DNA from: a virus
Taxonomy: Duplodnaviria; Caudoviricetes
Reading direction: 5' to 3' (one strand)
Length of the DNA stretch: 64,000 nucleotides
Virus record (IMG/VR): IMGVR_UViG_3300024252_000005
Positions 1,317 through 55,447 of this stretch are shown here, in pieces. Position 1 is the first letter of the stretch, and each line of letters begins with the position of its first letter. The notes under the pieces are model-generated. The model was given only the letters and a program-made list of their open reading frames with translations. It ran no database searches and was not told the origin of the DNA. A program made the position numbers and the translations under genes.

Positions 1317-2210
1317 ATGCGATTTACAAATATTAATATTGAAGGTCCTGACTGTAGTGGCAAGACTACATTATTTAATAGACTTCATAAAGAAACAAAT
1401 TTTAAATATAATATACAAGACAGAAGTTGCATGTCAATGTATGTTTATTCAAAGTTATATGAGCGAAGTGATACTTCTTTTTGGTTTGACAAGATCATGG
1501 ATGACATTAAGAGACTAGACACACTTTATATTATTTTGTTACCAACTGAAGATGTTTTACTTGAGAGGTTGCAAAAAAGAGGTGATGAGTTTCAAGATGA
1601 AAGTAGTATTCTTAAAGTAAGAAGTCATTTTTTAAATCTTGCAAAGGTAGGCTTTGGTTCTTACCCGAATGTTTTAGCACTATCAAACATAGAAGACATA
1701 TGTGAAAAAGTTGATTTGAGCTTGAATTTTATTGAGTCGTTAAATGATATGCCAAGTGGTGAACTCATCAAGTCAATAGTAATCAATAGTGGAAGGAATG
1801 AATTAGTAGATGTTCAATGCAAAGAAGAAGTTAAAATAGATTCACTAGATTTCTCTGTTTTAAACTTTCCTCAAGAAAAAAGTTATTATGAGGACATAAT
1901 GCAAAAGATTGAACAGAAGTTATTTAGAGAATTCTCTGGCCTAAATAATAGTAATGCACCACAAAAACATAATAGCAGAAGATTTATATACTCTGGTGAC
2001 AGTTGTATATCTTTAATTCATGCCTTATTCAGGCAAAATAGATTAAATGTTTCAGTTACAATGAGATCTTCTAACGTAATCAAAACTTTATGGGCTGATT
2101 ATGAATTTCTTAAGATATTAAGCGTAAAAATTGCTGAGCTAATGAGTCTAGAAGAGAGTATACCAGTTGATTTAACAATTAATATAAGGTCAGCACATAT
2201 TGTTCCTTAA
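1317..2210 (+). CDS. P-loop dNMP/thymidylate kinase fused to a thymidylate-synthase-fold domain
   Basis: N-terminal GPDCSGKTT and DRS. C-terminal NSRR, C230, MRS (R250, 20 aa after the Cys as in ThyA C146/R166), D261 at the ThyA N177 position, and SAHI. Confidence 0.7.
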   Translation: MRFTNINIEGPDCSGKTTLFNRLHKETNFKYNIQDRSCMSMYVYSKLYERSDTSFWFDKIMDDIKRLDTLYIILLPTEDVLLERLQKRGDEFQDESSILKVRSHFLNLAKVGFGSYPNVLALSNIEDICEKVDLSLNFIESLNDMPSGELIKSIVINSGRNELVDVQCKEEVKIDSLDFSVLNFPQEKSYYEDIMQKIEQKLFREFSGLNNSNAPQKHNSRRFIYSGDSCISLIHALFRQNRLNVSVTMRSSNVIKTLWADYEFLKILSVKIAELMSLEESIPVDLTINIRSAHIVP

Positions 2211-2833
2211 TCACCAAAATCGTAAAGATCTTTTAGATAAGATTTGAATTTATTTAGTGCGTCTTTATATGTACAAGAACCAGAATTAATATCACTATAA
2301 TATTCTTCTTTAGCATGGCTAATCAATCCTTTAACTTTTTTTCTTTCTTCTTCGCTTTGCAAGTTTAATCTGCTAAATATTTTTGATACAATATCATTAG
2401 ATACAAGATGATTTTCTAACTCTGATATTGTAAAAATATAGCATATATTACTTGTTTTGTCTTCGATACAAACATAATCATTTATATTTACACCCGGACT
2501 CTCAATAATGCCAAATAAAAATAAATCTCCATACTCCATTGCATAGTCTTCATCATAGTCACCATGATCATTTAAAGGCATATATATTAAAAGACTTTCA
2601 GGACTACAACCTAATATTTTTGAAGCTTGATCTGCATTATAGTCAAAATTGTCTTCTTTTGGATTGAAACCTACTTCTGGAAATGAAGGTTCAACTTTTT
2701 CCCAATATACATTCATTTCAGCTACTGTCTCGTCGTCATGGTTGTAAAAAGAAGGATCTGGTCTACCACCTTCTATTATTATACTTCTAATTAATCTACG
2801 AAGTTTATTCTCTGTGATTGTGAATTTTTTCAT
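2207..2833 (-). CDS. Hypothetical protein with N-terminal helical tag (KLRRLIRSIIIE)
   Basis: 208-aa ORF converging on the upstream gene; no family recognised. Confidence 0.7.
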   Translation of the reverse strand: MKKFTITENKLRRLIRSIIIEGGRPDPSFYNHDDETVAEMNVYWEKVEPSFPEVGFNPKEDNFDYNADQASKILGCSPESLLIYMPLNDHGDYDEDYAMEYGDLFLFGIIESPGVNINDYVCIEDKTSNICYIFTISELENHLVSNDIVSKIFSRLNLQSEEERKKVKGLISHAKEEYYSDINSGSCTYKDALNKFKSYLKDLYDFGD

Positions 2834-2846
2834 TTCATGCCTTGCT

Positions 2847-5636
2847 TTATTTGCAATATAATTCTTTTAGTGTTCTACCCAACAAGACTCTATGGCTTAG
2901 ATCGAGCTTAGGTGTCATTAGTTTAGTTAAGGGGCTTTTAACAAACTTTTCTAATCGATCGATTTCATTTTTATATGAACTTATCTTAGAAGAACTCCTA
3001 AATGTTTCGATAAATCTATTGTAAAATGATTCATTGTCATTGCTAATAATATCTAAAAGCCTAACTTTAGAAGTAATTAAATTATGTGCGCTATTCTTTA
3101 ATTCTACTTCTTTCTGGAAAGATTGTATTAAAATACCTATTACTAATTTTACAAAGTTAGTTATTGGTACTTCAACTAACATCTCAATTGCTTCACTACT
3201 TTCAGACATAATTCTATATAAGTTTATTGAATAAGCTAAATCATCGTATACAAACAACTTGTTGTTGTTAGAAATTAATTTATCAATGCCATATAAATAT
3301 AATTCTTTACTAATGTTGCTTCTAGAAATTGTTCTTTCAAGTTCGTTAACAAGACTATTTTTCGATAGAACATCTATTAGCTTTTTAACTTTTTCATCAC
3401 CAAGTTCAATTTTAAATTCCTCTACTACATTTACAAAGCGTGAATAAACTTCTTTACTTCTTAAGTTTTCAAATTGCTGTGTCGCGTTTATAACATCTTC
3501 AAGAAAAGTAGTTTTTTCTTTTTTTGTCATTTCTAGAAATATAGGTCTGCAAAGATCAAATTCTTTATTAGGATCCCAACCACATAAAAATATAGCGCCA
3601 AGAAGTTTAGATAAAGTTTTATAATGTATAGATTTGTTAATTATTTTACTGTGAATTTTTTGAAATTTTTGTTTTGAATTGTCAATAAGTGATGTGTATA
3701 TATCATTTATATATAAAGATGTGTCTTCTGAGACTGTGTATTTAGTTGTATACTTGTACAAAGTAGATGATATAGGAAATATATCAGATGCTGCTGATGG
3801 TTTGTTATCAATGTCAAAATCTTCGTATAATTCTGTAAATATATTTACTAATTTTTCTACCGTGCCAGACCCAAATTCTATATTGAAATTTGAATACTTG
3901 CAAAGCAAAATAAAGTTTGTAAGCAAATTTGTCCTTGCAAAGTATGTGCTAAGATTTCCTACAAAATCTACGCTTTTATCAATAAAATCATTTGCTGAAT
4001 TTTTGAATTCTTGCTCAATGCTTCCAGACCTGTTTTCTTCTTTATCATATTCATTGTGATTAAAGATTGTTGGAGAAGAGTGATAACAGTATTTAATTAT
4101 TCTTGATTTCATTTCTTCGTTAACATTAGCGTACTCATATATCACAGGAGCTAGCTCTCCTTGTGTAATAATATTTACCCACGAATAGTCTTTAAGTACT
4201 TTTTCAAACTCTACTTCCCATTTTTCTTCTATTTTATTTCTTTTTCTTAGAATATATCTAAATGCTCTTTGATATGCGTTGAGCAATTGATATTTGCTTT
4301 GATTAACGTCTTCAAAAAGATCACGATAACCTTTTAATGCAATACTAAAAAAAACATTAGAAATAATCCTAGCTTGAAAAGATAAATAATTTGAACATAA
4401 AAAATTTGTAAAACTACTTGGTTTGTATTTGCTGCTATCAATTTTTTCTATTACCATAGATAATATCTCATAAAGTGCTTCAGCGTTGCCTCTTGGGTGA
4501 TCACTTTCTATTACACTGTTTGACATGCCTAATAGAAACTTAGAAGCAAATGATCTTAGAAACGATATCTTGTCTTCTTCATTTAGTTTCTGTATACTTA
4601 ATAATGCGACTCTAATGTTTTTTAGACTTATTTCTTTTAATATATAAATACTGTTTAGATCTATAACCCCTCTAATCTTTTTCTTTTCTTTGTTTTTTTC
4701 TTCTAGCGAATAGTTTTCTTCTGCAATGTTATTCATTGTTTCAAAGTCAAGCTTATTTCTAGATTTGCTGCCTACGAAATCATTTAAGCTATCGTACCAA
4801 TCTACAAAATCAGAATTTTTTGAATCTAGTCTGCCTAAACCAATTAGCTTTGCATCGTGTTTAGGTAAAAAAGAAGCGCAGACAGGACCGTCACTACCAC
4901 CGTAAAGAATAATACCGTCGTAAAGATTAATAATATTTTCTCTTTCAAACTTTTTCATTATTATTTTACTTATCTTAGCTGTAATAATTTTTTCTTCATC
5001 TAACGTTTTGTTTAATTTAAAATCATCTACATTTATCTCATCTAACATTTTTCTTAAAACATCAGTGCTTTTATGAACAACACTTGTTTCGTTATTCAAA
5101 GAAAACATTTTTAATATTTGATTTTTTATGCTCCAGTTTTTACCATGAACTTGTTTAGCCAAGTCTTCAGTGAGTATTAGGAATCTGCTTATATCTATTT
5201 CAAATACAAGACATATGTTGCCGTAAGTTTGTGCAATAGATGGATTAAATTTATAACATGTATATAATCCTACACCATGATACGCGCCACCCCCGGGATT
5301 GAATCCGCTAGAGTCTGTATAAGGATCTCCGATCATATCTGATATTACTTGCTCTTCTACATCATTTTTAGTGACAGTTGCTACTCTATTTTTATTATGG
5401 AGATTTTTTAGTATTCTTTGTGATCTAGAGTCATCTTGAGATACAGTCCTTTCTTCACCTGTTCTAGTGGGTTTATTTAATTGATCAGTAACTCTTTCGT
5501 TATATTGTGCCCACTTTTGGTGGCTAGTTAAGTGATAACATATTAGCTTGTTTGTACTTGCATCAAAGTTAACTATACTAGGATCTAGACTAGATACTTT
5601 TGATTCTGCAAGTAACCATCTTATACTTCTGTTCAT
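2847..5636 (-). CDS. Large protein with N-terminal ADP-ribosyltransferase(PARP-like)-type domain; paralog of 5633..8479
   Basis: YHLTS...GFNPGGGAYHGVGLYT...YGNICLVFEID resembles the H-Y class ART strands; shares about 280 N-terminal aa and the C-terminal LDLSHR...TLKE.Y with the neighbour. Confidence 0.55.
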   Translation of the reverse strand: MNRSIRWLLAESKVSSLDPSIVNFDASTNKLICYHLTSHQKWAQYNERVTDQLNKPTRTGEERTVSQDDSRSQRILKNLHNKNRVATVTKNDVEEQVISDMIGDPYTDSSGFNPGGGAYHGVGLYTCYKFNPSIAQTYGNICLVFEIDISRFLILTEDLAKQVHGKNWSIKNQILKMFSLNNETSVVHKSTDVLRKMLDEINVDDFKLNKTLDEEKIITAKISKIIMKKFERENIINLYDGIILYGGSDGPVCASFLPKHDAKLIGLGRLDSKNSDFVDWYDSLNDFVGSKSRNKLDFETMNNIAEENYSLEEKNKEKKKIRGVIDLNSIYILKEISLKNIRVALLSIQKLNEEDKISFLRSFASKFLLGMSNSVIESDHPRGNAEALYEILSMVIEKIDSSKYKPSSFTNFLCSNYLSFQARIISNVFFSIALKGYRDLFEDVNQSKYQLLNAYQRAFRYILRKRNKIEEKWEVEFEKVLKDYSWVNIITQGELAPVIYEYANVNEEMKSRIIKYCYHSSPTIFNHNEYDKEENRSGSIEQEFKNSANDFIDKSVDFVGNLSTYFARTNLLTNFILLCKYSNFNIEFGSGTVEKLVNIFTELYEDFDIDNKPSAASDIFPISSTLYKYTTKYTVSEDTSLYINDIYTSLIDNSKQKFQKIHSKIINKSIHYKTLSKLLGAIFLCGWDPNKEFDLCRPIFLEMTKKEKTTFLEDVINATQQFENLRSKEVYSRFVNVVEEFKIELGDEKVKKLIDVLSKNSLVNELERTISRSNISKELYLYGIDKLISNNNKLFVYDDLAYSINLYRIMSESSEAIEMLVEVPITNFVKLVIGILIQSFQKEVELKNSAHNLITSKVRLLDIISNDNESFYNRFIETFRSSSKISSYKNEIDRLEKFVKSPLTKLMTPKLDLSHRVLLGRTLKELYCK

Positions 5637-8479
5637 TGCTTTGCCTTTACATTATAAAATCTATATACTTCTTTTAAAGTATTACCTACTATTAAACGAT
5701 GACTTAAATCAAGTTTCTTGTCTAAATTATTATTTTCTTGACCATTTGTTGGGGTTTGTATTTTTGATTTCTTTGCATCAATATTCATTTCAAGAGTAGA
5801 AATAGCTCCTCTTAATCCACTTCCTTTACTCGACTTAACCATTTTAAGAAAATATTCAAACCACGCAATATCGTTTAAGTTAATGATTTGCGGTATTGTA
5901 GTTTCTTCTTCATTAATATTTATAAAAGGAAGACTATTATGTGAGAAGAAATTATATGTAGTTGATTTTAACTTTCCACTACCTCCCCACGTGTATTCAG
6001 GAGTAGGATTTCCAGCAATAGTGTTAGCAAGATTTAAGATAATCATTTTAAGTAAGCCCGGTCTAGCAGCTCGAGCAAAAAGATTTACAATGCTTCTATG
6101 TTTATATAGTAGTCTATATACTCCTGGGTTAAATTCAAAACCTTTAAATGATAATCCTGCGCCCATTCCACCTTTTATCATGTCAGGTTCAAAAAGTTCA
6201 ATAAAGGCATCAGGATCAATATGCTTATAGGAAGCCATAGAATTTTTAGTATTGTGGTGAGATCTACTAATTTTTCTAGTAAATTTAAGCTGCTCTTCTT
6301 TTGTCAATACTATATCGTGACTTTTGATAAGTGCAATTATATAATCTGCCTGTTTTTGTCCTAAAACTTGTTTGATAACTGCAATATTGCCTATAACCAT
6401 TTTAACAAAGTTTGAAAACCATTCGCTTGATTGTCTACTTAAATAGCCAATATAATCTTGATTTTCGATCTGTTTTAAAAGCTCTGTCCCAAGCTGTCTT
6501 TTTGTAATTACTCCTAATCTTAGTTTGTACATGAAGTTGTCAATATCATTTTTAGCAGCTTTTTCATTTTCTGCTAATATTTCTTGTATTTTATCCATCA
6601 CAGGATGAGATCTATCTAGTTCTTTAACAAGATAGTTAGCTATGTTATCAAAGACGCTTTTGTTTGTCATACTTTTTATTTCATCTATATTTTCTAAAAA
6701 AGCACTTGCCAAATATTCACTTGCTTTGCTAGAAAAATAATTTATCTTGGGCAAGAAATAAAATAAATTGCTTAATAGACTCAAGTCATAATTTTGTCTT
6801 AGACTGCTAGCTGTAGGTTGTTTTTTAATTTCATCTATTGTTTTTTCTAACAATTCATTTGTTACTTTATAGTTTTTAAGCGTAGAGTCCCAGTTTAATG
6901 TATATATGGTCGAATTGACAAAAGAGTCAACTATAAGAACAATAACTCTGCTCTTTTGATATTCATCAGCATCTTTATAATAGTTTGATATTTCTTCTAA
7001 AGAGAGCGTTGATACTACAAGTTGTGGGCGAAGATCGTACACTTTCTCATTGAAATCTTTTTTAATTGCTTCACTTACTTCATTATTTTCTATATATTGT
7101 GAAATAAACTTATAAAAATCTCTTGTATCTATAGCACTTCTCTGGAATGCTTTTTCATTCATAACATATTTGATGCAGGTTTTTAAGAAAAAATCAGATG
7201 GTTTTATATTATATTTCAAATAGTTTTCAAATAATGTCCTTGAAAAATATGTTTGTGTTTGCAACACATTTTTTTGAATTAGTACATTAATTGTTTGATC
7301 AACTATCTCGTTATAAAGCGGGCCTGATTTTACAACACTTTCAGCCCAAACATATTGTGAGCTTTTAAAAGACATTAAGAAGAACTCAAGCATGTTTTTA
7401 TCATTTTTTGATTTTATATCTTCGTAATAATCAAAAAATCTTACTCTTTTTTCTTCACCTACGTCAGAAAGATTCGAATGACTCTTGAAAAATGTCGATA
7501 TTTGTAAATATTGCACATCAAAAGGAATACGCTCACTTAATTTCATTGCCTCTAATTCTTGAGGATCAGAATTTTCTGCTGCAATAGCATTTATAGTTTC
7601 AAAGTCTTGCTTTAATTTTGCACGTCCTCTTACAAAATCATTTAAGCTATCATACCAGTCAACAACTTCAGGTCGAGATGGATTTAGTCTACCTAAACCA
7701 ATTAACTTTGCGTCATATTTAGGGAAAAAAGAAGTACAAACAGGACCATCAGACCTACCATATAAAATTACTCCGTCATATACAGAAGTTATTATGTTTT
7801 TTCCAAATATCTGTAATAGATGTTGACTTATACCAGCAGTTCTTTCATTGAAAGAATTAATAGTTTTTGCCATCTTTGTTTTTTCGTCATAATCTGGAAT
7901 ATCATTAAGAACTTGTTTAAATTTCTGAATACTTTCCTCAGACTTTTCTTCTCTTTTATAGAACTTTAAAAGTTGATCTCTTATTGACCAGTCTTCACCA
8001 TGAACTTGTTTGGCTAAATCTTCAAAAGTTATTAAAAAGTTACTTATATCTACTTCAAACACTAAACATATATTACCATAGTGACTAGCAATAGAAGGAT
8101 TAAATTTGTAGCACGTATATAAACCTTTCCCATGATAGTCACCTCCGCCAGCTACAAAGCCGCTTGTCTCTGTATAAGGATCAGAGATTAAATCTTCGAC
8201 AACAAGCTCTTCTATTTGCCAGTCTTTATAGCTTTTGTTTTTTGAAACATTAGAAATTCTTTTTACAATACTTTTCGCTCGAGTATCTGTTGGCAATATT
8301 TCCCTATCAGGTCTTGAAGGAGGTGTGTCCATTCTTTTTGCAAACTCGTTATGTCGTATCCAATTTTGTTTTGAAGTCAAGTGATAACATATTAATTTAT
8401 CACCTACAATGTTTATTTTGTTTGTATCTAGTCCAGATAATTTTGCTTCTGTCAATAACCATCTTATACTTTTATTCAT
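5633..8479 (-). CDS. Large protein with N-terminal ADP-ribosyltransferase(PARP-like)-type domain; paralog of 2847..5636
   Basis: YHLTS...GFVAGGGDYHGKGLYT...YGNICLVFEVD...DGVILYGRSDGPVC; 4-nt overlap with the downstream paralog. Confidence 0.55.
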   Translation of the reverse strand: MNKSIRWLLTEAKLSGLDTNKINIVGDKLICYHLTSKQNWIRHNEFAKRMDTPPSRPDREILPTDTRAKSIVKRISNVSKNKSYKDWQIEELVVEDLISDPYTETSGFVAGGGDYHGKGLYTCYKFNPSIASHYGNICLVFEVDISNFLITFEDLAKQVHGEDWSIRDQLLKFYKREEKSEESIQKFKQVLNDIPDYDEKTKMAKTINSFNERTAGISQHLLQIFGKNIITSVYDGVILYGRSDGPVCTSFFPKYDAKLIGLGRLNPSRPEVVDWYDSLNDFVRGRAKLKQDFETINAIAAENSDPQELEAMKLSERIPFDVQYLQISTFFKSHSNLSDVGEEKRVRFFDYYEDIKSKNDKNMLEFFLMSFKSSQYVWAESVVKSGPLYNEIVDQTINVLIQKNVLQTQTYFSRTLFENYLKYNIKPSDFFLKTCIKYVMNEKAFQRSAIDTRDFYKFISQYIENNEVSEAIKKDFNEKVYDLRPQLVVSTLSLEEISNYYKDADEYQKSRVIVLIVDSFVNSTIYTLNWDSTLKNYKVTNELLEKTIDEIKKQPTASSLRQNYDLSLLSNLFYFLPKINYFSSKASEYLASAFLENIDEIKSMTNKSVFDNIANYLVKELDRSHPVMDKIQEILAENEKAAKNDIDNFMYKLRLGVITKRQLGTELLKQIENQDYIGYLSRQSSEWFSNFVKMVIGNIAVIKQVLGQKQADYIIALIKSHDIVLTKEEQLKFTRKISRSHHNTKNSMASYKHIDPDAFIELFEPDMIKGGMGAGLSFKGFEFNPGVYRLLYKHRSIVNLFARAARPGLLKMIILNLANTIAGNPTPEYTWGGSGKLKSTTYNFFSHNSLPFININEEETTIPQIINLNDIAWFEYFLKMVKSSKGSGLRGAISTLEMNIDAKKSKIQTPTNGQENNNLDKKLDLSHRLIVGNTLKEVYRFYNVKAKQ

Positions 8480-8613: not shown

Positions 8614-9300
8614 ATGAAAAATAATTCAGTTATTGTAGAGTATATTAAAGAGGCGATTAATGAAAATGTTCTTGAAGATAGTGAAGAACTTAGCTATAAT
8701 GATCATTTAATAAAGCTGGGTCGCGATCACTCTCCTGAAATAGAAAATATTTTAAAGGACAATATATACTCTGACAATAGATATGGTGGTACTTCAATGT
8801 ACAGTTTCTTCAACAAAGAGGGTGAAGGTTACAGCATGTCAGAACTTGCTGAAGAGGGTGAAGGTGCTACAAACGATATACTCGAGTATTTTCCGTCAAT
8901 ACCCTATATAGAAGATGGTTTAGATGAAAGCATTAGTGATATGGTTAGAAATCAAATAGAAAGATTACTTGACAATTTTATTAAACTCACAAGAAGTAAG
9001 TATCGTTTAAGTGAAGGTAACATATATAAAGCAATAAGAAATTCTGCTAAGTATATTACAGATGAATGGTCTTTGATATATTTAAAAAAGAAAAAAATGT
9101 TAACAGAATATATTGACAGTGAAGATCCAATAAATCAAATAATTAATAAACTACAGCTTTCAGGCTCTGAAGAGAAATATCAACTTGATTATCTTGTTAA
9201 AGATTATTTTAATCAATATTACGATGACGTTACTTCTAGCCCAGAAACATCTTTGCAAGTTTTAAAAGATAGCTTAAGTTATTATATTGACGTAGACTAA
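8614..9300 (+). CDS. Hypothetical acidic protein
   Basis: Track ORF 8545..9300; ATG at 8614 follows AAGG and gives MKNNSVIVEYIKEAINE. Confidence 0.65.
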   Translation: MKNNSVIVEYIKEAINENVLEDSEELSYNDHLIKLGRDHSPEIENILKDNIYSDNRYGGTSMYSFFNKEGEGYSMSELAEEGEGATNDILEYFPSIPYIEDGLDESISDMVRNQIERLLDNFIKLTRSKYRLSEGNIYKAIRNSAKYITDEWSLIYLKKKKMLTEYIDSEDPINQIINKLQLSGSEEKYQLDYLVKDYFNQYYDDVTSSPETSLQVLKDSLSYYIDVD

Positions 9301-10424: not shown

Positions 10425-13400
10425 ATGAATATTAAAATGGCAGACTTTTTGTTTGAAGATGAAAATAAAGAAGCTGAAGGCCAGGGCTTAGAAGGTCAAA
10501 GTGGAAGTAATCAATCTAAAGAAAATGATGCTGACAAGGACGGCAGAGCGAAATTTAGATCTAAAATAAGTGATGAAAAGTTATTTAGTAAAGACAATCC
10601 TGAGTTAAAACTTTCAGAATTAAAAACAGTTGCTGTAAAAATTGTTGATGTTATTAATAGCTTAAATCCAAATATAGAAAAAAATCATGATTTTCATAAA
10701 GAACTTGAGAGCATTGAAAGTGCTGAAGACTTGAGTGATGAACAAAAAACTCAAATAAAAAAAATACATAATGCTGTTAAAGATTCACCTTTAGGATTGT
10801 CAACAAAGCAGTTTTTAATGACTTTATTTAAGAGAAATTTAACTGCAGGTCAAACTGGGAAAATAGGAAGAGTACATTTAAACCCTCTACAACTTGTCAA
10901 AGGTGCAGGACAGATAGAAGGTGGGACGCCTGCTGACATTAAAAAATATGAAAACTATAAAATGTTTTTTGGAATGTTGGCAAATCAAGATTCAAAGCCT
11001 ATTATGTGCAATGGTAAAATTGTTATCATGGCGATACCAGCTTTTGGAGAAAATTGTTTAGAAGCAAAACAACTTTATGACATAACTTATCCGGGAATGA
11101 TTACAAAAGAGGCTCCTGTAGCGGGAATAGTATCTCAGGTTTACTTTGGTTTAGCAACAAAAGAAACTCTAGATCTGATGCAGACAAGTCCTGTGCGTGC
11201 AATAGGAATAATGAATACAAAAGTCATGCAATCAGAAAGCTTTGTCTATAGAAATGGAATCTCTTCGTTGTTAAACGAAAACATTCTGATTGAATCGAAC
11301 CAAGGTGTGGGTATTGGCTTGCCATTTATTTCATTGGATAAAGAAGAAGAAGAGCCAACAGAAGAATCTAAAGAAGACGCTGAGAAAGACGCTGCTGCTA
11401 AGGCTGCTGAGAAAGAAAAGAAAAGTGATGAAGATGCTCCAGGCAAAAGCAAACTTGAATATGACAAAATCTATAGTTTATTTGACGATTTAAACAATCT
11501 GCATGATGGTCCAAAAAAGAAAAAAGAAGCTGCTAGAGTATATACTATTTATGCTTTAACAGCATTAGCTTGCGCTGAACATGAAGGTGCATACAGTAAG
11601 GAAGAAGTTGACAGAATAATTGATAGTACAACCAACTTTAGACAATTGTTTACAACTTTATCTAGTAAGTTCCATCCTGATAGAAATAAAGCAACTTGGG
11701 CTGAAGATATCCAAGTAATACTTCAATATTTAAATGAAAAATCATATAGACAAACACCTGGAAATTATGAATTTAAAAAATCACTTTTTGAAGCTTTATA
11801 TGGTGTTAGAGACACTGATAATGGTCATCTTTTTATTAAAAAAGCAGAATTTAAGGCTGCAATGGATAAAGTCAGAAGTAGTTATGATTCTCATATAAGA
11901 GCTTCAGATGTCTTAAATTCAGCAGAACAAGCTGTACCGGGTGAGATCGATGCTGAAGGTGAGCCCCTCGACGACGAGACCGATCGCGATCTTTTGGAAG
12001 TTATTAGTAGTTTTATTAGTTCAGTTAAAGAAACAATTAAAAATCAAGAAATTGAAAATGGAAGTATTGAAAAGTCAGAAGTTCTTAGTGGTATTGAAGC
12101 CGGCTTCTTCATGACAGATATTCTTGAATCTCATAGAAGAAGAAGAAATGGTGTTGACGAGTCTGTCCTCTACAGTGATATTGAAGATCTTCGAAACGAG
12201 TTAAATGATCTTAGAGATCAAGTAGAGGTCATAGAGGTAGATGGTGAGACTCCTCAAGAAGCAGCTGCTGAAGAGAGAAATATTGCAAAAGTAAAAGCAA
12301 AAGCAAAAGCAAAAGTAAAAGAATTTGAAAAATTGCCTTTGCCCTCGCAACTCAATGCTTTACAACAAAAGGTTAACAATTGGAATGATATATTTAATTT
12401 AGCTGATGGTTTATTTTCCCAGGATGATGCTGATGAGATCTTTGAGTTCGATTTTGAAGATTCATCTGATGAAGAGGCCGAAACAGAAGAAAGTCGTGAT
12501 GATATTGACTTAAAAAAAGAGTTCGGCGTAGAATACAATGTTTTCTATGAAACTTCTGATTTCAAAGAAAGAATATTAAAATTTATTGATAAAGATTATA
12601 ATGGCAAAGGCAACCCAGAATTTCAATATAAAAATTGGGACAAAAACTTTAAGAAAACAGGTTTCATTATAATTAGTCCTTTATCTGATGAGAATCAAAG
12701 TGCGCTTATTAGTAATGTTGCAGTTCCTTGTCAAATGTTTAATATTTTTAATTTCAAACAAGTCTTAGAGAATAGTGGTAGATTGCCAAAATTTCACATG
12801 GAGATGTCAAAAGACAATGATAATCCGCGATATAAATACGGACATTCAAGTAAAGGTAATTTAGGAATAGGCGGCAAAAACCGACGTCGCGCAAATCCTC
12901 TGACCGCTGATTATTGGAATAGTATGTCTAGAATAATGTTTTTTGACAATACTGAATATGATGAAGGTACAACAGAATTTGAGAATATTTATTATGCTTT
13001 AAATGAAGCTTATCTAGTAAATAAAGTAAAAGCAGCACCAGAAAAAGTATCAGATTCAGAAAGTCAAGAAAAAGATACGCCAAACATAGAATATAATAAA
13101 TTAATTAAAAAACAAAACCCTCTATCTAAAGATTTCGTAAGAAGGGTCTTTGGTAACGTTGGGAATAGTGTAAGTAGATACTTTAATAATAAAAATCCTG
13201 ATAAGCTCAAAGACATAGTTAAACTTGAAAATAACTCAGGCTATATTTATTTTAAGTTTGATAGGAGGGGGACGACGAAAGTGCCACATGGTTCACATTT
13301 TGTTATTATACACAAAGATGAAAGCGGTAATGTTTACGCATATGATCATAGTGGAATATCTCGAGATTATCCGGATATCAAGGTAATGAGAAAAAATCAA

Positions 13401-39778: not shown

Positions 39779-40140
39779 TTTTTGCCACCCCAGTATTCTT
39801 TTGCTAAACCTTCGTTAATCAATTTTTTATTATAACTATTTTCATACTCAAGTTTATCTTCTTCTAAGCTCCATATTGTACCTAACCACCTACCAAACTT
39901 TCCTTTTTTCTCTGTATGTATCATCACTTTCTTGCCAAGGATTCTCTCTCTCAACCAGTCTCTAGTTTCTTTGCCCTTCTTCTTTTCTTCTAAGTCTTTA
40001 GTTCTAATCTCTGGAGTATCAATACCTACAAGTCTAACTTTAATGCGAGCTGATAATTTGAATCCTAAGTCTACAACACATGTACATGTATCTCCATCAT
40101 AAACTTTAACAACTTCAGCTATATAAAAATATGGTTTCAT
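39775..40140 (-). CDS. Thermonuclease (SNase-like)
   Basis: VYDGDT, VRLVGIDTPE, KFGRWLG. Confidence 0.9.
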   Translation of the reverse strand: MKPYFYIAEVVKVYDGDTCTCVVDLGFKLSARIKVRLVGIDTPEIRTKDLEEKKKGKETRDWLRERILGKKVMIHTEKKGKFGRWLGTIWSLEEDKLEYENSYNKKLINEGLAKEYWGGKK

Positions 40141-40206: not shown

Positions 40207-40692
40207 ATGAAAAAACAAAAGCTGTCTAAAGAAGATTTTGAAAATGTCAAAACTATTGGTAATCTAAAACAATTGCTTGAAAGATTTTTAAAAGAAATAA
40301 GATCAAAAGATGCAAAGTCAGCTTTGACAAAAGCAATAGTTTCAGAAGTACCGTTTTTAGGTACAGCAAAAAACGTTAAAGATATTATAAAAAGGCTAGC
40401 AGTTAAAAGACCTGATAGTGAAAGACCTGATAACGCTCTCGGCGTGTTAGATATTGATGATGAATTAGAAAAAATTATATCTTCTAAGGTGTTAGAAAAA
40501 TTTTTAGACTTTCTGGTAATGTCTATAAACGACGATGATTCTACGCCTATAAGCAATTGGAATATAAATAGCGAATTAGAAGAATATCTAAAAGAGTTAT
40601 ATAAAGGTAGAACTATAACTGGCTTTAACAAAAAAAGAATGAAAACAACAGAAAGCGTGTTAAAAGAGTACATAAAAAACTATTTGATTTAA
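40207..40692 (+). CDS. Hypothetical protein with C-terminal tag (TESVLKEYIKNYLI)
   Basis: 161-aa ORF. Confidence 0.7.
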   Translation: MKKQKLSKEDFENVKTIGNLKQLLERFLKEIRSKDAKSALTKAIVSEVPFLGTAKNVKDIIKRLAVKRPDSERPDNALGVLDIDDELEKIISSKVLEKFLDFLVMSINDDDSTPISNWNINSELEEYLKELYKGRTITGFNKKRMKTTESVLKEYIKNYLI

Positions 40693-44477: not shown

Positions 44478-44942
44478 ATGAAAGAAAGATCACTAATAAG
44501 AGAATTCCTTGAGACAATGTACAAAGAACCTGCTATAGATATAGATACAGACTATAGCCTAGATTCTGTAAGCCACGATTCAAATCATGACATTGACCCA
44601 AATAGAGATGGTATAGTTAGTAAAGAAGATTTATACACGCATTTTGATTTAGACAATGATGGTATAGTAACAACTGATGAGTATGCAAATCATGTAGGCT
44701 TTCATTGTCAATATCCAGAATCTTTGGATCATTATAATACACTAAAGTCAAAATCTCATGAAGTTGTTCCCTGTAGAACTTCTTACGACTCTTGTTCACA
44801 GCACTTTTTGGGTAATACAGATGATATAGATATATATCTTTCACCATTAATGGATGCTACAGGCTCAACATGCAAAACTTCATCTGTTCAAGGACTTTTA
44901 GATGTATTACAGTCTTTGATAAATTGTGGAATGCTTAAATAA
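44478..44942 (+). CDS. EF-hand calcium-binding protein
   Basis: Paired loops DPNRDGIVSKED and DLDNDGIVTTDE; N-terminal SLIREFLE tag. Confidence 0.7.
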   Translation: MKERSLIREFLETMYKEPAIDIDTDYSLDSVSHDSNHDIDPNRDGIVSKEDLYTHFDLDNDGIVTTDEYANHVGFHCQYPESLDHYNTLKSKSHEVVPCRTSYDSCSQHFLGNTDDIDIYLSPLMDATGSTCKTSSVQGLLDVLQSLINCGMLK

Positions 44943-44997: not shown

Positions 44998-45195
44998 ATG
45001 ATTAAATTAGGTGACAAAGTTTACCACTGGCAAGAGATGAATAAAGTCGGTGTTATAGTAGAAGTTGTAAGTAACAAGAACAATCAAATGACTGTTGGCG
45101 GCACAACAGATGTTAGAATATATTATAAAGTAGAATACGAAAACGGAGAAATTAAAGTATATAACTCAGGTGATATACAAAAACACTATGAATAG
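44998..45195 (+). CDS. Hypothetical protein (SH3/KOW-like beta pattern)
   Basis: 65 aa, AAGG SD. Confidence 0.6.
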   Translation: MIKLGDKVYHWQEMNKVGVIVEVVSNKNNQMTVGGTTDVRIYYKVEYENGEIKVYNSGDIQKHYE

Positions 45196-45700
45196 CTTGA
45201 TTTTTAATGTTATTAAAGAGTTTGCTATATCATATGCATTGCAAGATGAATTTTGTATGGAAACATATAAACAACTATCTGGAGTAGAAGCCACTCTAGA
45301 AAATAGAATTGTTTGTTCTGCTGTGATAAATGCTGCTAAAAGCCATGAAATAAAACCCATTAGAGGATTAAGCGTTGCATGGGTTGAAAGTAGATTGACT
45401 AGTCAACTGGTTCCTACTAAATCTAAATGTATTGGGCCAATGCAAATAAAAACAAAGTATTGGTGTAAAGGAAAAAATGTTGATAGCTGTGAACCAGTTA
45501 CTGATGGTGTTAAAGCTTTAAGATACTATATAAAACATTTCAAGCCTATAAGAAAAGCTTATTGCTTTTATAACGATTCAAGAAAACCAGAATGCAAAAA
45601 AGACTATATGACTAAATATGTTAAAAAAGTAGTTAAGGCTTACGGAAATATTAAAAAAATAGCTATTAAAAAGAAATTTAAATCTCTTAATATTCTATGA
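45170..45700 (+). CDS. Lytic transglycosylase (SLT/lysozyme-like)
   Basis: AWVESR (catalytic E-S) and GPMQI; start uncertain. Confidence 0.65.
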   Translation: MIYKNTMNSLIFNVIKEFAISYALQDEFCMETYKQLSGVEATLENRIVCSAVINAAKSHEIKPIRGLSVAWVESRLTSQLVPTKSKCIGPMQIKTKYWCKGKNVDSCEPVTDGVKALRYYIKHFKPIRKAYCFYNDSRKPECKKDYMTKYVKKVVKAYGNIKKIAIKKKFKSLNIL

Positions 45701-47759: not shown

Positions 47760-47766
47760 TTCAATT

Positions 47767-47796: not shown

Positions 47797-47845
47797 ATAA
47801 CATAAAATAAATAATTTCAACACCTTTAATCAAGGAATAAATAAA

Positions 47846-48928: not shown

Positions 48929-48942
48929 AGGGCTTAACAGAT

Positions 48943-50659: not shown

Positions 50660-50677
50660 GGATACAAAAAATAAAAC

Positions 50678-52151: not shown

Positions 52152-52157
52152 TAGATT

Positions 52158-52182
52158 AAGCCAGCTTCTTGCTGGCTTTTTA
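52158..52182 (+). terminator. Intrinsic terminator
   Basis: AAGCCAGC-ttctt-GCTGGCTT followed by a T-run. Confidence 0.85.
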
Positions 52183-52312
52183 GTATTTACTTCCAGGCTT
52201 AGATTTGACGAAGCAGGTGGCTGTATACGCAAGTAAGGTTAAATTTTAAAACGTTATTTAAATCAATTAAAAGTTATATAATATTTATACATAAATAGAA
52301 AAAGGTAAATTT

Positions 52313-55300
52313 ATGAAATTGTTATCTCTAAAGTCAGTCTACAAAAACTTATTAAAAGAAGCAATAATAGATCAAGGGTCTTTCTTAGAAAAGTTAGTTG
52401 ACGTAATTACTAAGAAACTAACAGATGAAAGTAGTTTTGGTAACTTATTAAATAAAATAATTGTAACGACTAAAAAGTCTAGATTGCTAGAATTAAAAGC
52501 AGAGCAAGAAGAAATTGAAAATAAAGCAAAAGATGCTTCTCCTACACAAAAAGCTGATCTGAAAAAGAGAAAATCTTTAAATAAAAAAGCAAGAAAAAAA
52601 GCAGAAATATCAATACATAAAAGTTTGCAAGACATAAAAGGTCTTAACGGTGATCCTATCGATCTAAAGAAAATGAGGCCTTTGTATGACAGTATTATCC
52701 AGCATCTATCAGCGCCTAAAGATGTAGATATTGAGCACTGCTTGCTTGCAGCTGATTACTATATGCAAGATTTTTATGATAACGCAGATGATGATATAAA
52801 GCAAAAAATTAATAACGGTAAAATTGAGTTTGATGAAATTCTAAAGACAACAAAATTTTATGAAAGATACTTTGAATTTAAAAGTGAGATGGGTACTTTT
52901 AACAATGAAATCATTAGTGTTTATGAGGACCATAATATAAGAGTAGTATACCCGGTAAATCCACATTCTTTTAACAACTTTATTAATTCCACGGGCATAA
53001 GCGTTTCATGGTGTACACAATCTCCTTCAACATGGGAAAGCTATAACTCAAGACAGTTTGTCATGATAGTACACGACAAATCAGAAGTTGAAGGTATAAT
53101 AAGCCTAAAGGTCAACTTTGACGGAAGTATTGACTATGATGAAACTTGTAATGTATACAATGAGCATATGGATAGCTATTCTGTAGGAATGATTTTAAAT
53201 GGCGTTGCTCAAGAAGAAATTAGAGAAAAAGTAAATAGTGGCGAAATTTATAAAGCTGATCCTAACCCTCTTACTGCTGAAGACTTGACAGAATACCTAT
53301 CAGGACTTCTCGATACAAATAATGTAACAGAAATGTTCTCAATAATGATTGCTTCAATGCAAGGCTCAGAAGACGGCACAATGCTTGTTGACGCTTCTTC
53401 TGAGCTTTTCAAGTATGCTGCTGAAAACAATAAGGTTAATACGGCACTCGAAGTTTATGCAGATGTTTTTTCTAGTTTGATATTCGATGGCTTTGACATT
53501 AGCACTCGATTTGTTAAAATACCTTTGAGGAATAATAATCTCGAAGATCAATTTAACAATATTCTTTTTGAAAAAGCTTTAAATAAAAGAAGCCATATAA
53601 AATATTTTGTAGCCATTGCTGAGTCTTTTCAGCTGCCAATATTATCTAAAAGTGAACTTGATAATAAAATAAAAGAAATTACTTTTATAGCTGCAAATAA
53701 AAATAATCCTGCCAACTTCAAAAAAGTACTTGCTGCAATAAATAAAAATAGAGAAATACGCATTATTGTTACTAAGAAAAACTTTTTTCCTGAATTTTTT
53801 AAAACTAAAGGCTTTATACAATACTTTAAAGAAAAGAAAGCAAGCATACGCGTTTTTATAGATAAAAAAGATTATCATAGCATGGCTGATAAGTCTGGTA
53901 ACTTGTTATCAGAATTAATAACAAATAATATCGATTCCTTTAATGAAACTCTATACGCTCTTCAGGAGTCTGGAGAAACAGAAGTAACTTCTGAAGACAT
54001 GGACCTTTCTTTAATAGCAAGATTTATAATTCATAAGTCTGCTTTTCAAAACTTTGATATAGAAGATTATGAGTTAGATAGACTTAGCACTGTTACTTTT
54101 GAAATAAAAGAAGATCAACTTAATGACATTGCAAGTGTTTTATACACAGACTTAAGTTTAGTTAAGTTACTTTGCAAAAGTCATCCTGATTTAAACGATG
54201 TACTTTTGCAACATTTTTATTCTAAAGTAAATAAATGGCTTGATAAAAACAGAATAAACAAGTCAATATCTTTTAGTAACCAATCTTCTTATGATGTACT
54301 AGTTTATTTAATTAGTAACTCTAAAGAAAAAGTTGAAAGAATGCATACAAACAATGGAGATGATATGCCTTACTTAGCAATTGCAAATTTTGTTACTTCA
54401 ACTTTACTTTTAGTTAATAAATTTGGAAAAGGATATAATCTAGGTACTAGCTTGACAGAAGTTTTAAAGAAGATAATGATTAATCAATCTTTCTTTAGAG
54501 GTATTTTACACAAAAATTCAGATTTTAATAAATTAAATCAAAATTTAACGCATAATGTACTTAACATAGCTTCAGATATCGATTTTGATGACTCAGTTAA
54601 AGAACGCATTAAAAATGAAATAAAAAAGTTAGAAGCTTTAAAAAATTTAAATAGTAATGAAAATAGATTTTTATTTCTAAGAGATCTTGTAAAAATTACA
54701 AGTATTAAAGAATACATTATTTCTTCATTAAATTCAAGCAAACCACCTACACCAGCCCGACATAGACTAGACTACGATGATTTAGTTGATTTATATTCCA
54801 TGTTTTATGTTGTTGCTAACAATAATTTAAGCGAGGACGTGTTATTAAACATGTTTAAAAAGTATGCAAATCTTGTCTCGCTCGATGATAGCTCTCATAC
54901 TCCTGAATCATTAAATCTACTAGACAACGGTGGAAGTAATATTATTAGTAGAATAATATCTTCAACAATAACAATAGATAAAGAATTTACAAAATCAATA
55001 GGTAGCCTCATACATAAAAGGTTTTTTCATAATTCAATGCATTTTGTAAGCTTAATAATAGAAATCGTTACAAAGTGTAATGAAAAAAATATTGGTTTTC
55101 ATAAAGAACATTTAGCAAAAGTATTTTACAGTCAGCAATTTAAAAATTACGCAAGAAGTACTAGGCATAAATTTTTAACAAACTTTATCACAAAAGGATC
55201 TGATGGCGAGGATAACTTTTTAGACACAAGAGATAGAGTTATAGTTAAAAACTGTTTAAGAGACGGTATAAAAAAAGCACCTAAATCTTTAGCACGAGAC

Positions 55301-55447
55301 TATGATTTTATTATGGATTTATGCGCTAATTTAGACGAGTACTCAAAATTCCAGTTAAGAACTGCATTTCCAAACGAAGAAAGAATAAAAAGCAAAGATA
55401 CTAACGAGGTATTAATTAAAAAGTACATAAAACTATTTTTTAGTTAA
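52313..55447 (+). CDS. Large hypothetical protein with N- and C-terminal tags
   Basis: MKLLSLKSVYKNLLKEA...; internal VYP...SWCT motif; ends TNEVLIKKYIKLFFS. Confidence 0.8.
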   Translation: MKLLSLKSVYKNLLKEAIIDQGSFLEKLVDVITKKLTDESSFGNLLNKIIVTTKKSRLLELKAEQEEIENKAKDASPTQKADLKKRKSLNKKARKKAEISIHKSLQDIKGLNGDPIDLKKMRPLYDSIIQHLSAPKDVDIEHCLLAADYYMQDFYDNADDDIKQKINNGKIEFDEILKTTKFYERYFEFKSEMGTFNNEIISVYEDHNIRVVYPVNPHSFNNFINSTGISVSWCTQSPSTWESYNSRQFVMIVHDKSEVEGIISLKVNFDGSIDYDETCNVYNEHMDSYSVGMILNGVAQEEIREKVNSGEIYKADPNPLTAEDLTEYLSGLLDTNNVTEMFSIMIASMQGSEDGTMLVDASSELFKYAAENNKVNTALEVYADVFSSLIFDGFDISTRFVKIPLRNNNLEDQFNNILFEKALNKRSHIKYFVAIAESFQLPILSKSELDNKIKEITFIAANKNNPANFKKVLAAINKNREIRIIVTKKNFFPEFFKTKGFIQYFKEKKASIRVFIDKKDYHSMADKSGNLLSELITNNIDSFNETLYALQESGETEVTSEDMDLSLIARFIIHKSAFQNFDIEDYELDRLSTVTFEIKEDQLNDIASVLYTDLSLVKLLCKSHPDLNDVLLQHFYSKVNKWLDKNRINKSISFSNQSSYDVLVYLISNSKEKVERMHTNNGDDMPYLAIANFVTSTLLLVNKFGKGYNLGTSLTEVLKKIMINQSFFRGILHKNSDFNKLNQNLTHNVLNIASDIDFDDSVKERIKNEIKKLEALKNLNSNENRFLFLRDLVKITSIKEYIISSLNSSKPPTPARHRLDYDDLVDLYSMFYVVANNNLSEDVLLNMFKKYANLVSLDDSSHTPESLNLLDNGGSNIISRIISSTITIDKEFTKSIGSLIHKRFFHNSMHFVSLIIEIVTKCNEKNIGFHKEHLAKVFYSQQFKNYARSTRHKFLTNFITKGSDGEDNFLDTRDRVIVKNCLRDGIKKAPKSLARDYDFIMDLCANLDEYSKFQLRTAFPNEERIKSKDTNEVLIKKYIKLFFS

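What the first reader, a model, noticed from the sequence alone, without database searches (positions are those of the whole stretch)
2207..55447. Shared terminal helical tag bounded by (L/I/F)-x-E on about 15 unrelated proteins: candidate capsid-targeting and protease-cleavage signal
Seen at N-termini: RLIRSIIIE/GG (2833-), SIRWLLAE/S (5636-), SIRWLLTE/A (8479-), EYIKEAINE (8614), ADFLFE/D (10425), LKLLKE/E (17499), SVYKSLLE (18828), ANNLLFE (20318), AKFLNE (26772), SLKKVYKNLLKE/E (39778-), SLIREFLE (44478), SLKSVYKNLLKE/A (52313). Seen at C-termini, after an E: NE/SLIRNYVNSFLF (36518-), TE/SVLKEYIKNYLI (40207), NE/VLIKKYIKLFFS (52313), QE/SKKMSLKNVYKILF (39778-), plus TLKELY and TLKEVY on the ART-like pair. 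Established: T4 internal proteins carry a short capsid-targeting leader removed by gp21 after (L/I)-x-E. Inference: this is a modular packaging tag usable at either end, marking a cargo set injected with the DNA.
Basis: partly seen in the sequence, partly recalled or inferred. Interest (0 to 1): 0.78.

Follow-up and report, generated by a model that had tools for sequence, protein, structure and literature searches.

The report
Capsid-loading helix tag, either protein end
An uncultured 255-kb marine phage puts one short Ser-capped amphipathic helix on the front or the back end of many unrelated, strain-variable proteins; it is most likely a T4-style "load me into the head" label, and the back-end version has not been described.

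Summary
About ten of the listed termini carry one real motif, S-h-h-[KR]-x-[YFW]-h-[KRN]-x-h-h. N-terminal copies end in (L/I/F)-x-E. C-terminal copies run to the stop codon and follow a near-invariant Glu. Position-weight models built from one end, or from another genome, pick out the other end's tags at the top of about 19,000 positions. The tags persist in homologues down to 27% identity, with synonymous codon changes. One protein family carries the tag at the C-terminus here and at the N-terminus in a close relative.

I could not retrieve the window genome's own head genes. A syntenic relative (239.5 kb, complete) and nine further relatives all encode a T4 gp21-type prohead protease. The relative also has T4-type portal and capsid genes, and the same kind of leader sits on small proteins beside its protease. 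T4 internal proteins start MKTYQEFIAE (checked).

Best reading: a T4-type capsid-targeting and propeptide signal that marks a variable packaged cargo, with a new C-terminal form. Packaging and cleavage are inferred, not measured. At the C-terminal junction the P3 residue is not L/I.

This scan has already noted N-terminal leaders of this kind in other marine T4-like phages. None of the notes I retrieved describes a C-terminal form or an end-swap.

The parts
2771..2833 (-). N-terminal leader MKKFTITENKLRRLIRSIIIE of a 208-aa protein (2207-2833); 'class A' form
   Evidence: Same form as G006 MKITERRLRQIIRSVIKE, MKITETKLRNLIRKVILE and MKITERRLRSIIKNIIKE.
5604..5636 (-). Short N-terminal leader MNRSIRWLLAE of a 929-aa protein (2847-5636)
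   Evidence: Short S-h-[KR]-x-L-L-x-E form, as in some members of the 52313 family.
8447..8479 (-). Short N-terminal leader MNKSIRWLLTE of a 948-aa paralogue (5633-8479)
8614..8664 (+). N-terminal leader MKNNSVIVEYIKEAINE of a 228-aa protein
   Evidence: Rank 5 with the G006-derived PSSM and rank 12 with the C-tag PSSM.
10425..10457 (+). Possible short leader MNIKMADFLFE of the 2350-aa protein (weak)
   Evidence: No homologue available for a check. No G006 counterpart.
17499..17540 (+). Leader-like MKLNSELMLKLLKE (moderate)
   Evidence: The G006 orthologue starts MSLNKREMIHILKE/E.
18828..18872 (+). Leader-like MNKKFSNSVYKSLLE (moderate)
   Evidence: The G006 orthologue has a different N-terminus that also ends h-x-E (MKTELKKLIVFQKYFKE).
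20318..20374 (+). Leader-like MKKTSVDSLTKLANNLLFE (moderate)
   Evidence: The G006 orthologue has ..FRSFVKDILFE/N.
23928..23966 (+).
   Evidence: Picked by the a-priori rule. The G006 orthologue starts MILKNIMFDYLNE.
26772..26825 (+). Possible leader MNMKKLIIKDKKAKFLNE (weak)
   Evidence: No support from any PSSM. No G006 homologue.
35736..35774 (-). C-terminal tag E/SLIRNYVNSFLF* of a 261-aa HxGH nucleotidyltransferase-fold protein (35733-36518)
   Evidence: Top hit of the G006 N-leader PSSM. Tag and preceding Glu conserved in 32 of 34 homologues at 38-100% identity; E249 is invariant in the 31-sequence alignment. AF2: core pLDDT mostly above 90, terminal helix 62-72. Fold.
36533..36562 (-). 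C-terminal tag SLKNVYKILF* of the 1082-aa protein (36530-39778)
39734..39778 (-). N-terminal leader MKYSLKKVYKNLLKE of the same 1082-aa protein
   Evidence: 11 of 12 residues identical to the 52313 leader in an otherwise unrelated protein. Six of the 11 shared residues use different codons.
40651..40689 (+). C-terminal tag E/SVLKEYIKNYLI* of a 161-aa protein (40207-40692)
   Evidence: Rank 2. Conserved in 4 homologues. The G006 positional homologue has the tag at its N-terminus, MNVIKDYVRNFLLLE.
44478..44513 (+). N-terminal leader MKERSLIREFLE of a 154-aa protein
   Evidence: The G006 orthologue starts MSERKLIREFLD (Glu replaced by Asp).
45188..45220 (+).
52313..52360 (+). N-terminal leader MKLLSLKSVYKNLLKE of the 1044-aa protein (52313-55447)
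   Evidence: 39 of 41 full-length family representatives have an h-h-x-E leader within 26 residues, down to 27% identity.
55406..55444 (+). C-terminal tag E/VLIKKYIKLFFS* of the same 1044-aa protein
   Evidence: 28 of 41 family representatives keep the C-terminal tag, preceded by E in 21 and by D in 4.
2850..2873 (-). Partial motif TLKELYCK* at the C-terminus of the 929-aa protein (weak)
   Evidence: Shared with the paralogue (TLKEVY..., 5636-5680) within a conserved block. No PSSM support.
39775..40140 (-). Staphylococcal-nuclease homologue heading the operon with the two tagged genes above; starts MKPYFYIAE
   Evidence: Pfam SNase, 1.6e-13. N-terminus compared with T4 MKTYQEFIAE. Exact TATAAATA 25 nt upstream.

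Best explanation
The motif is a portable, Ser-capped amphipathic helix of about 11 residues. It most likely docks a protein onto the assembling prohead core (scaffold) of this T4-type head, as the capsid-targeting sequence of T4 internal proteins does.

At an N-terminus the helix is followed by (L/I/F)-x-E. There the gp21-type prohead protease would cut and free the cargo inside the head.

At a C-terminus the same helix runs to the stop codon. It is joined to the cargo through a variable linker and a near-invariant Glu-Ser junction, which is a likely second cutting point. Large proteins often carry both versions.

The carriers are enzymes (an HxGH nucleotidyltransferase fold, a ligase-like module), large proteins of unknown function and probably small basic proteins. 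Most sit in strain-variable islands. They would be packed with the DNA and delivered into the host.

Shown: the motif, its restriction to termini, its conservation, its modularity (end-swap), the T4-type head module in relatives, and the leader on proteins encoded beside the protease.

Inferred: binding to the core, cleavage, packaging and injection.
For: 1. Cross-validated motif at both ends.
2. Selection on the peptide. The 36530 and 52313 proteins are unrelated, yet 11 of 12 leader residues are identical, and 6 of the 11 shared residues use different codons. Tags persist in 34, 64 and 5 homologues of three families while the bodies diverge to 27-38% identity.
3. End-swap. The core of W40207 (aa 7-129) aligns with G006 S17920 (aa 28-162), E 1e-8. 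Its C-terminal SVLKEYIKNYLI aligns with the N-terminal NVIKDYVRNFLL of S17920.
4. G006 is a complete 239.5-kb relative: 56 of 72 window proteins have a G006 homologue and the order is syntenic. It has Peptidase_S77, Portal_T4 and Gp23. Its capsid protein reads ..AAQVLRE59/SS. The small proteins just downstream of the protease start MAKVSRSMLKSIVKECLVELLAE/G and ..TIRRMVLEE. The first roughly 35 residues of the former barely vary among the 120 listed of its 283 homologues (ECLVELLAEG in 99 of 120), while the rest diverges.
5. All 10 relatives' records that I searched have Peptidase_S77.
6. T4 IPII and IPIII begin MKTYQEFIAE/A. Review PMC9026906 places targeting at residues 4 and 7 and processing at residues 8 and 10. 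This is the same aromatic-x-x-h-h-x-E register as VYKNLLKE here and WRRFLKE in relatives.
7. Ten of the 16 window genes without a G006 homologue are tagged, against 8 of 56 with one (P 3e-4). This recalls the polymorphic T-even internal-protein loci.
8. The residue before the capping Ser is Glu in 57 of 65 C-terminal tags, but K, R, N or L in the N-terminal copies. This fits a Glu-specific cut between cargo and tag.
9. G006 has an array of small Lys-rich proteins with the leader at 16091-17281.
Against: - There are no virion or cleavage data for any member of this uncultured lineage. The nearest isolates are below 40% identity.
- The head module of the window's own contig was not retrieved.
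- At the C-terminal junction P3 is not L/I, so it does not match the T4 gp21 rule. Five C-tags in two families have Asp or Lys in place of the Glu.
- The gene at 52313 shares a sigma-70-like GTTATATAAT box with tdk rather than a clean TATAAATA. This would fit early rather than late expression.
- Some carriers in relatives (HAD-type fold, nucleotidyltransferase) are not typical virion proteins.
- Several listed instances are short and compositionally easy to get in a 30% GC genome.
Confidence: 0.62

Rival explanations
1. The helix is a short linear motif for some other hub, unrelated to the capsid. One candidate is a sliding clamp or replisome/repair hub, which binds peptides at either end of many client proteins.
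For: Clamp-binding peptides occur at N- or C-termini of unrelated proteins, and hydrophobic-aromatic C-terminal ends such as FLF* or LFF* recall them (my own knowledge). Two carriers are nucleotidyltransferase- or ligase-like. An earlier follow-up in this scan (e1-831089) compared a shared C-terminal tail in other viruses with clamp-binding peptides.
Against: No Gln-based clamp consensus is present; the helix is basic and amphipathic. The same motif, followed by L-x-E, sits on the small proteins encoded beside the prohead protease and is their most conserved part. The near-invariant Glu before the C-terminal copies has no role in this model.
Confidence: 0.1
2. The terminal helices are membrane-targeting amphipathic helices, of the kind found on MinD, FtsA and MreB. 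They would bring the proteins to the cell membrane, where T4-type proheads also assemble.
For: They are basic amphipathic helices with aromatic residues at the extreme termini. This is the usual make-up of membrane-targeting sequences (my own knowledge).
Against: Sequence conservation goes far beyond amphipathicity: Ser cap, central Tyr/Trp, h-x-E or E-S boundaries. The motif is linked to the head-core genes. It resembles the T4 capsid-targeting sequence.
Confidence: 0.07
3. The leader is a recognition handle for another processing machine, with no role in packaging. Candidates are the phage-encoded GroEL (T4 gp23's N-terminus directs proteins to GroEL) or a modifying enzyme, as in RiPP leaders.
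For: The window, G006 and G001 all encode a GroEL. Snyder and Tarkowski 2005 is listed in the references of PMC10052503. An earlier follow-up in this scan (e1-127136) re-read a shared phage leader as an enzyme recognition site.
Against: Small proteins of 72-125 aa carry the leader and are unlikely chaperonin clients. No modifying enzyme is consistently adjacent. The Glu boundaries fit a Glu-specific protease.
Confidence: 0.07
4. The C-terminal helices are ordinary structural parts of each protein family, and only the N-terminal leaders are tags. The resemblance between the ends would then come from amphipathic helices in an AT-rich genome.
For: In the AF2 model the C-terminal helix is a continuous helix (241-260) of the protein. 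In the shuffles one hit of 14.9 bits or more occurs somewhere in 7.7% of shuffled proteomes.
Against: Four unrelated families end with the same motif after a linker of variable length and a Glu. One family has the motif at the other end in a relative. No C-terminal window reached the score in 2000 shuffles. The helix has lower pLDDT than the core.
Confidence: 0.1

Closest known systems
Capsid targeting sequence (CTS) of phage T4 internal proteins IPI, IPII, IPIII (and Alt), removed by the prohead protease gp21
   Same: A short N-terminal peptide on otherwise unrelated, polymorphic proteins. It has aromatic/hydrophobic positions three or four residues apart and ends in (L/I)-x-E. A gp21-type protease, Gp20-type portal and Gp23-type capsid protein are present in the lineage. 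T4 MKTYQEFIAE compares with MKERSLIREFLE..VYKNLLKE and MKPYFYIAE here. Function as described in PMC3012670 and PMC9026906.
   Different: Dozens of carriers rather than a handful, including proteins of 900-2350 aa. The helix is longer and Ser-capped. The signal also occurs at C-termini, in dual N+C arrangements and with an end-swap between orthologues. The phage has a DnaE-type polymerase, and its capsid protein is only 34-40% identical to its best matches in the phage collection. No experimental data exist.
N-terminal propeptides of head and ejection proteins in phiKZ-like giant phages (e.g. SPN3US gp245, motif A-x-E)
   Same: Many head-internal proteins are processed after Glu by a prohead protease, with Ser favoured at P1' (PMC10052503).
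   Different: In SPN3US every substrate propeptide is N-terminal; only the protease's own propeptide is C-terminal. P3 there is Ala. Propeptides are mostly 111-254 residues and are not one shared short helix.
C-terminal capsid-binding end of herpesvirus scaffold proteins, cut off by the maturational protease (assemblin)
   Same: A C-terminal segment of about 25 residues is needed for capsid assembly (Thomsen et al. 1995, listed in the references of PMC4379554). A cut just upstream releases the protein (my own knowledge). This is the arrangement proposed here for the C-terminal tags. From my own knowledge, the two proteases share a fold.
   Different: There it is the scaffold itself, with an Ala/Ser cleavage site. 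Here it is a portable tag on diverse cargo with a Glu/Ser junction. This is an analogy only and was not tested.
Cargo-loading peptides of encapsulins
   Same: A short terminal peptide, usually C-terminal, directs unrelated enzymes into an HK97-fold shell (my own knowledge).
   Different: No sequence similarity, no proteolytic release, and not a virus.

Membership tests
T4-type capsid targeting sequence / gp21 propeptide | Short N-terminal peptide shared by otherwise unrelated proteins | tested here: met
   The carriers are mutually unrelated by BLAST except for one paralogue pair.
T4-type capsid targeting sequence / gp21 propeptide | Peptide ends in the gp21 cleavage motif (L/I)-x-E | tested here: met
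   N-terminal copies: LLKE, LLAE, IIIE, FLE, INE in the window. 39 of 41 members of the 52313 family. Enrichment P 0.008 in the window and 9e-8 in G006.
T4-type capsid targeting sequence / gp21 propeptide | The same cleavage motif at the C-terminal tag junction | tested here: not met
   Glu at P1 in 57 of 65 sequences, but P3 is K, S, N, Q, T, A and others.
T4-type capsid targeting sequence / gp21 propeptide | Genome encodes a gp21-type prohead protease (Peptidase_S77) with T4-type portal and capsid protein | tested here: inconclusive
   Met in the syntenic relative G006 and in nine other relatives. The window's own contig region was not retrieved. First-stage notes on the same genome claim the protease, but I did not check them.
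T4-type capsid targeting sequence / gp21 propeptide | Same leader and cleavage site on prohead-core/scaffold proteins and on the capsid-protein propeptide | tested here: met
   G006: the proteins at 121786 and 121413 beside the protease; the protease itself starts MGAQRLITE/W; the capsid protein has VLRE59/S. Shown in relatives only.
T4-type capsid targeting sequence / gp21 propeptide | Carriers are found in virions with the peptide removed | not testable with these tools
   No isolate or proteome of this lineage was found.
Sliding-clamp binding peptide | Consensus Q-L-[SD]-L-F, or PIP box Q-x-x-[LIM]-x-x-[FY]-[FY] | tested here: not met
   None of the window tags has the Gln-based pattern. 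Consensus recalled from my own knowledge.
ADP-ribosyltransferase (Alt-like) for the 2847/5633 pair | Recognisable ART fold or profile match | tested here: inconclusive
   No Pfam or PHROG hit. Atlas feature search gives only a lead: 0.92 to a cluster in which 21% of members carry ART-PolyVal. The AF2 model is unusable, pLDDT 36.

The most novel reading that the evidence does not exclude
The helix is a position-independent capsid-loading signal. The C-terminal copies would be a natural 'reverse' capsid-targeting sequence, released by a Glu-specific cut with relaxed P3. N-only, C-only and dual tags together would define a strain-variable arsenal of more than 20 pre-packaged proteins injected with the DNA. 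The arsenal would include a nucleotidyltransferase/ligase-like set, a nuclease and proteins of 1000-2350 aa. If so, the injected proteome of a whole uncultured marine jumbo-phage family could be read from sequence alone.
Probability: 0.4. Interest if true: 0.8.

Novelty: new variant of a known kind. Interest (0 to 1): 0.6.

Why it matters
- If the tag loads proteins into the head, every carrier is a candidate first-minute effector (counter-defence, repair or take-over). The list can then be read directly from genomes of an abundant, uncultured marine phage family.
- A signal that also works at the C-terminus, and a natural example of the same protein tagged at either end, would widen what is known of T4-type head loading. 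The phiKZ-type proteomics paper I read (PMC10052503, SPN3US) reports substrate propeptides at N-termini only.
- It would also give a second handle for packaging foreign proteins whose N-terminus must stay free.
- The enrichment of tagged genes in variable islands suggests that the cargo set is a fast-evolving interface with the host.

Tried and rejected
- No whole genome is held for the window, and the 255-kb ENA contig cannot be searched as a record.
- I tried to reach the window genome's own head module. I used peptides quoted in first-stage notes and exact-protein look-ups from relatives. All landed on relatives only.
- The search for related loci with the 52313 and 2847 proteins found nothing in IMG/VR.
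- Pfam and PHROGs gave nothing for most carriers.
- A PSSM from the distant relative G001's 'KLIMENWRRFLKE' leaders does not pick out this window's tags. The flavours differ between lineages.
- Complex prediction of the G006 scaffold-like 513-aa protein with the C-terminal 40 residues of the 35733 protein returned no answer (collected). It is not used as evidence either way.
- AF2 of the 2847 N-terminal domain failed, pLDDT 36, and no ART profile matched.
- Promoter comparison was ambiguous, because TATAAATA is not over-represented overall in this AT-rich DNA.
- I found no paper on this lineage, on Microcystis phage Mel-JY01, or on capsid-targeting leaders in cyanophages.

Full report
**Where the window lies.** The window is bases 3652-67651 of a 255,251-bp marine metagenome contig (ENA ERZ27250222, k141_576377), GC 30%. 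No isolate is close. The best phage-collection matches are 32% identity for a MoxR-type ATPase and 34-40% for the capsid protein (uncultured huge phages and Rhodothermus phage RM378).

**The observation.** Aligned, they give one motif: a Ser (sometimes Val or Asn) followed by h-h-[KR]-x-[YFW]-h-[KRN]-x-h-h.
- N-terminal copies continue to (L/I/F)-x-E: MKYSLKKVYKNLLKE, MKLLSLKSVYKNLLKE, MKERSLIREFLE, MKNNSVIVEYIKEAINE, MN[RK]SIRWLL[AT]E, ..KLRRLIRSIIIE.
- C-terminal copies run to the stop codon: ..NE/SLIRNYVNSFLF*, ..TE/SVLKEYIKNYLI*, ..NE/VLIKKYIKLFFS*, ..SLKNVYKILF*.
- The carriers are unrelated to one another except for the 2847/5633 paralogue pair.
- The 1082-aa and 1044-aa proteins share nothing but 11 of 12 leader residues. 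Six of the 11 shared residues use different codons. The peptide, not the DNA, is therefore being kept.

**Is it more than chance?** I avoided circular tests.
- A weight matrix from the four C-terminal tags alone ranks the two best N-terminal leaders 5th and 6th of 19,259 positions. Five of the eight best non-training hits are terminal.
- A matrix from 13 N-terminal leaders of a different genome (G006) ranks the C-terminal tags of 35733 and 40207 first and second in the window. Seven of its ten best hits are terminal (P 4.5e-5) and four are C-terminal (P 2.3e-4).
- In 2000 composition-preserving shuffles no C-terminal window reached that score.
- A matrix from the window's tags, run on G006, puts 13 of its 30 best hits in the first 25 residues, against 10.6% expected (P 4e-6).
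- A rule fixed beforehand (amphipathic spacing plus [LIVMF]-x-E) is four-fold enriched at N-termini in both genomes.
- Weak items: ADFLFE (10425), AKFLNE (26772) and TLKELY/TLKEVY have no independent support. tdk, purA, purB, guaB, GroEL and ligase have no tag.

**Conservation.**
- The 35733 protein is an HxGH nucleotidyltransferase fold (NMNAT/PPAT-like, weak match). It has 34 homologues at 38-100% identity. In 32 of them the C-terminus reads E-[S]-h-h-[KR]-x-Y-h..., after a linker that varies in length and sequence. The Glu is invariant in the 31-sequence alignment. In the AF2 model the core has pLDDT mostly above 90 and the terminal helix 62-72.
- The 52313 family has 64 representatives at the 50% identity clustering level. 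39 of the 41 full-length members keep an N-terminal ..LLxE/A leader and 28 of 41 keep the C-terminal tag, down to 27% identity.
- The 40207 protein keeps its C-terminal tag in four homologues.

**The end-swap.** The positional homologue of 40207 in G006 (S17920) aligns over its core (aa 7-129 with aa 28-162, E 1e-8). It carries the motif at the N-terminus, MNVIKDYVRNFLLLE/Q. BLAST pairs it with the C-terminal SVLKEYIKNYLI of the window protein. G006 also has dual-tagged proteins. One example is a 789-aa protein that starts MNTKNLLREWKTFLLNE and ends ..LNE/SLLKKYISLLIF*.

**What the lineage is.** A peptide quoted in a first-stage note on another window of this genome (LIMENWRRFLKE) hit 16 IMG/VR contigs. 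In every one it sits at the N-terminus, on at least five different proteins.
- The five records I tested all carry Peptidase_S77, the T4 gp21 family.
- A search with a conserved ATPase found 338 related loci. Among them is G006 (IMGVR_UViG_3300033183_000491): 239,550 bp, terminal repeats, complete, GC 29%.
- G006 is syntenic with the window, and 56 of 72 window proteins have a homologue there.
- G006 has Portal_T4, Peptidase_S77 and Gp23 in T4 order. Its capsid protein has ..AAQVLRE59/SS and its protease starts MGAQRLITE/W.
- The small proteins just downstream of the protease start MAKVSRSMLKSIVKECLVELLAE/G and ..TIRRMVLEE.
- The first of these has 283 homologues. Among the 120 listed, its first roughly 35 residues barely vary (ECLVELLAEG in 99 of 120) while the remainder diverges.
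- LKSIVKECL is close to LKSVYKNLL of the window leaders.
- G006 also has an array of small Lys-rich proteins that start MNILLESYIKEILLNE and similar. These resemble T4 internal proteins.
- T4's own IPII and IPIII begin MKTYQEFIAE/A. Review PMC9026906 places targeting at residues 4 and 7 and processing at residues 8 and 10. The register is the same as in VYKNLLKE and WRRFLKE.

**Genomic setting.** The large tagged proteins of the window (2207, 2847, 5633, 8614, 10425, 26772, 35733, 36530, 52313) have no G006 counterpart. They lie between conserved syntenic genes. Ten of the 16 genes without a homologue are tagged, against 8 of 56 with one (P 3e-4). At the 52313 position G006 instead has a 114-aa protein that starts MKITERRLRQIIRSVIKE. 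This mirrors the polymorphic internal-protein loci of T-even phages.

**Mechanism proposed.** The helix docks the protein onto the prohead core. The N-terminal version is removed at h-x-E by the gp21-type protease.

The C-terminal version is the same helix placed behind the cargo. The residue before its capping Ser is Glu in 57 of 65 sequences from three families. In the N-terminal copies that position is K, R, N or L. I read this as a second, Glu-specific cutting point.

This last step is the weakest. P3 there is not L/I, and five C-tags in two families have Asp or Lys in place of Glu. If the tag is not cut, breakdown of the scaffold could still release the cargo.

The arrangement resembles herpesvirus scaffold proteins, whose C-terminal 25 residues are required for capsid assembly (Thomsen 1995, listed in PMC4379554). 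From my own knowledge, those residues are removed by the related protease. In SPN3US all substrate propeptides are N-terminal (PMC10052503). I therefore regard the C-terminal form as a new variant.

**Limits.**
- There is no measurement of packaging or cleavage.
- The window genome's own head genes were not retrieved; only first-stage notes claim them.
- The complex prediction gave no answer.
- The 'ART-like' label is unconfirmed.
- Promoter evidence is mixed. An exact TATAAATA lies 25 nt upstream of the SNase gene, which heads the operon containing 36530 and 35733. The same box lies 21-31 nt upstream of the G006 capsid, scaffold-like and head-operon genes. But 52313 shares a GTTATATAAT box with tdk.

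**Relation to earlier scan findings.** N-terminal leaders of this kind were already noted and followed up on other marine and freshwater T4-like phages, for example e1-5376900, e1-5389328 and e1-5368290. Unchecked notes describe them on other windows of this same genome. None of the notes I retrieved describes a C-terminal copy or an end-swap.

Noticed in passing
window 10425-17477 (+): The 2350-aa protein has a Pfam FliG_C match at residues 1270-1329 (32.6 bits; cut-off 23.3). This is odd for a phage protein. It has no homologue in the relative G006.
   Followed up: no
window 39775-40140 (-): The staphylococcal-nuclease homologue starts MKPYFYIAE, close to T4 IPII/IPIII MKTYQEFIAE. An exact TATAAATA lies 25 nt upstream. 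The gene heads the operon with the tagged genes 36530-39778 and 35733-36518.
   Followed up: partly
window 36530-39778 (-), residues about 620-638: An internal leader-like element, MILKEVYSNLYKKKIINE/GG, sits in front of a KxDG ligase-like module. Microcystis phage Mel-JY01 fuses an HxGH nucleotidyltransferase to this module in one 640-aa protein that starts MGKLINILLSELRLHIFSE. The window protein may be a polyprotein cut at internal sites.
   Followed up: partly
G006 (L130, L131), upstream of 116475-118283, 118327-119868 and 127661-128038: An exact T4-type late-promoter box, TATAAATA, lies 21-31 nt upstream of the capsid gene, the scaffold-like gene and the first head-operon gene. The 8-mer is not over-represented genome-wide, so only the positions are suggestive.
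   Followed up: partly
window 9321, 52273, 55460 (about 36-40 nt upstream of the genes at 9357, 52313 and 55499): An identical GTTATATAAT box sits at the same distance upstream of tdk, the tagged 1044-aa gene and a lipoprotein-like gene. This may be a shared early or middle promoter class.
   Followed up: no
window 44478-44942 (+) and G006 9460-10002 (-): Orthologues start MKERSLIREFLE/T and MSERKLIREFLD/L, so Glu is replaced by Asp at the predicted cut. In T4 an Asp at that position blocks processing but not targeting (PMC9026906). The window protein also has weak EF-hand matches at residues 53-70.
   Followed up: no
L001 1-4889 (contig bases left of the window): DNA polymerase III alpha appears as separate genes: a 532-aa PHP-domain part, a 307-aa ORF with no Pfam match, and a 762-aa part. 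This suggests a split or interrupted polymerase gene.
   Followed up: no
window 17499-18086 (+), C-terminus: The C-terminal ..SLEELEKEFSL* is conserved in the G006 orthologue (..DIFEKEFSL*) and scores 4th with the G006 leader matrix. It may be a further terminal element.
   Followed up: no
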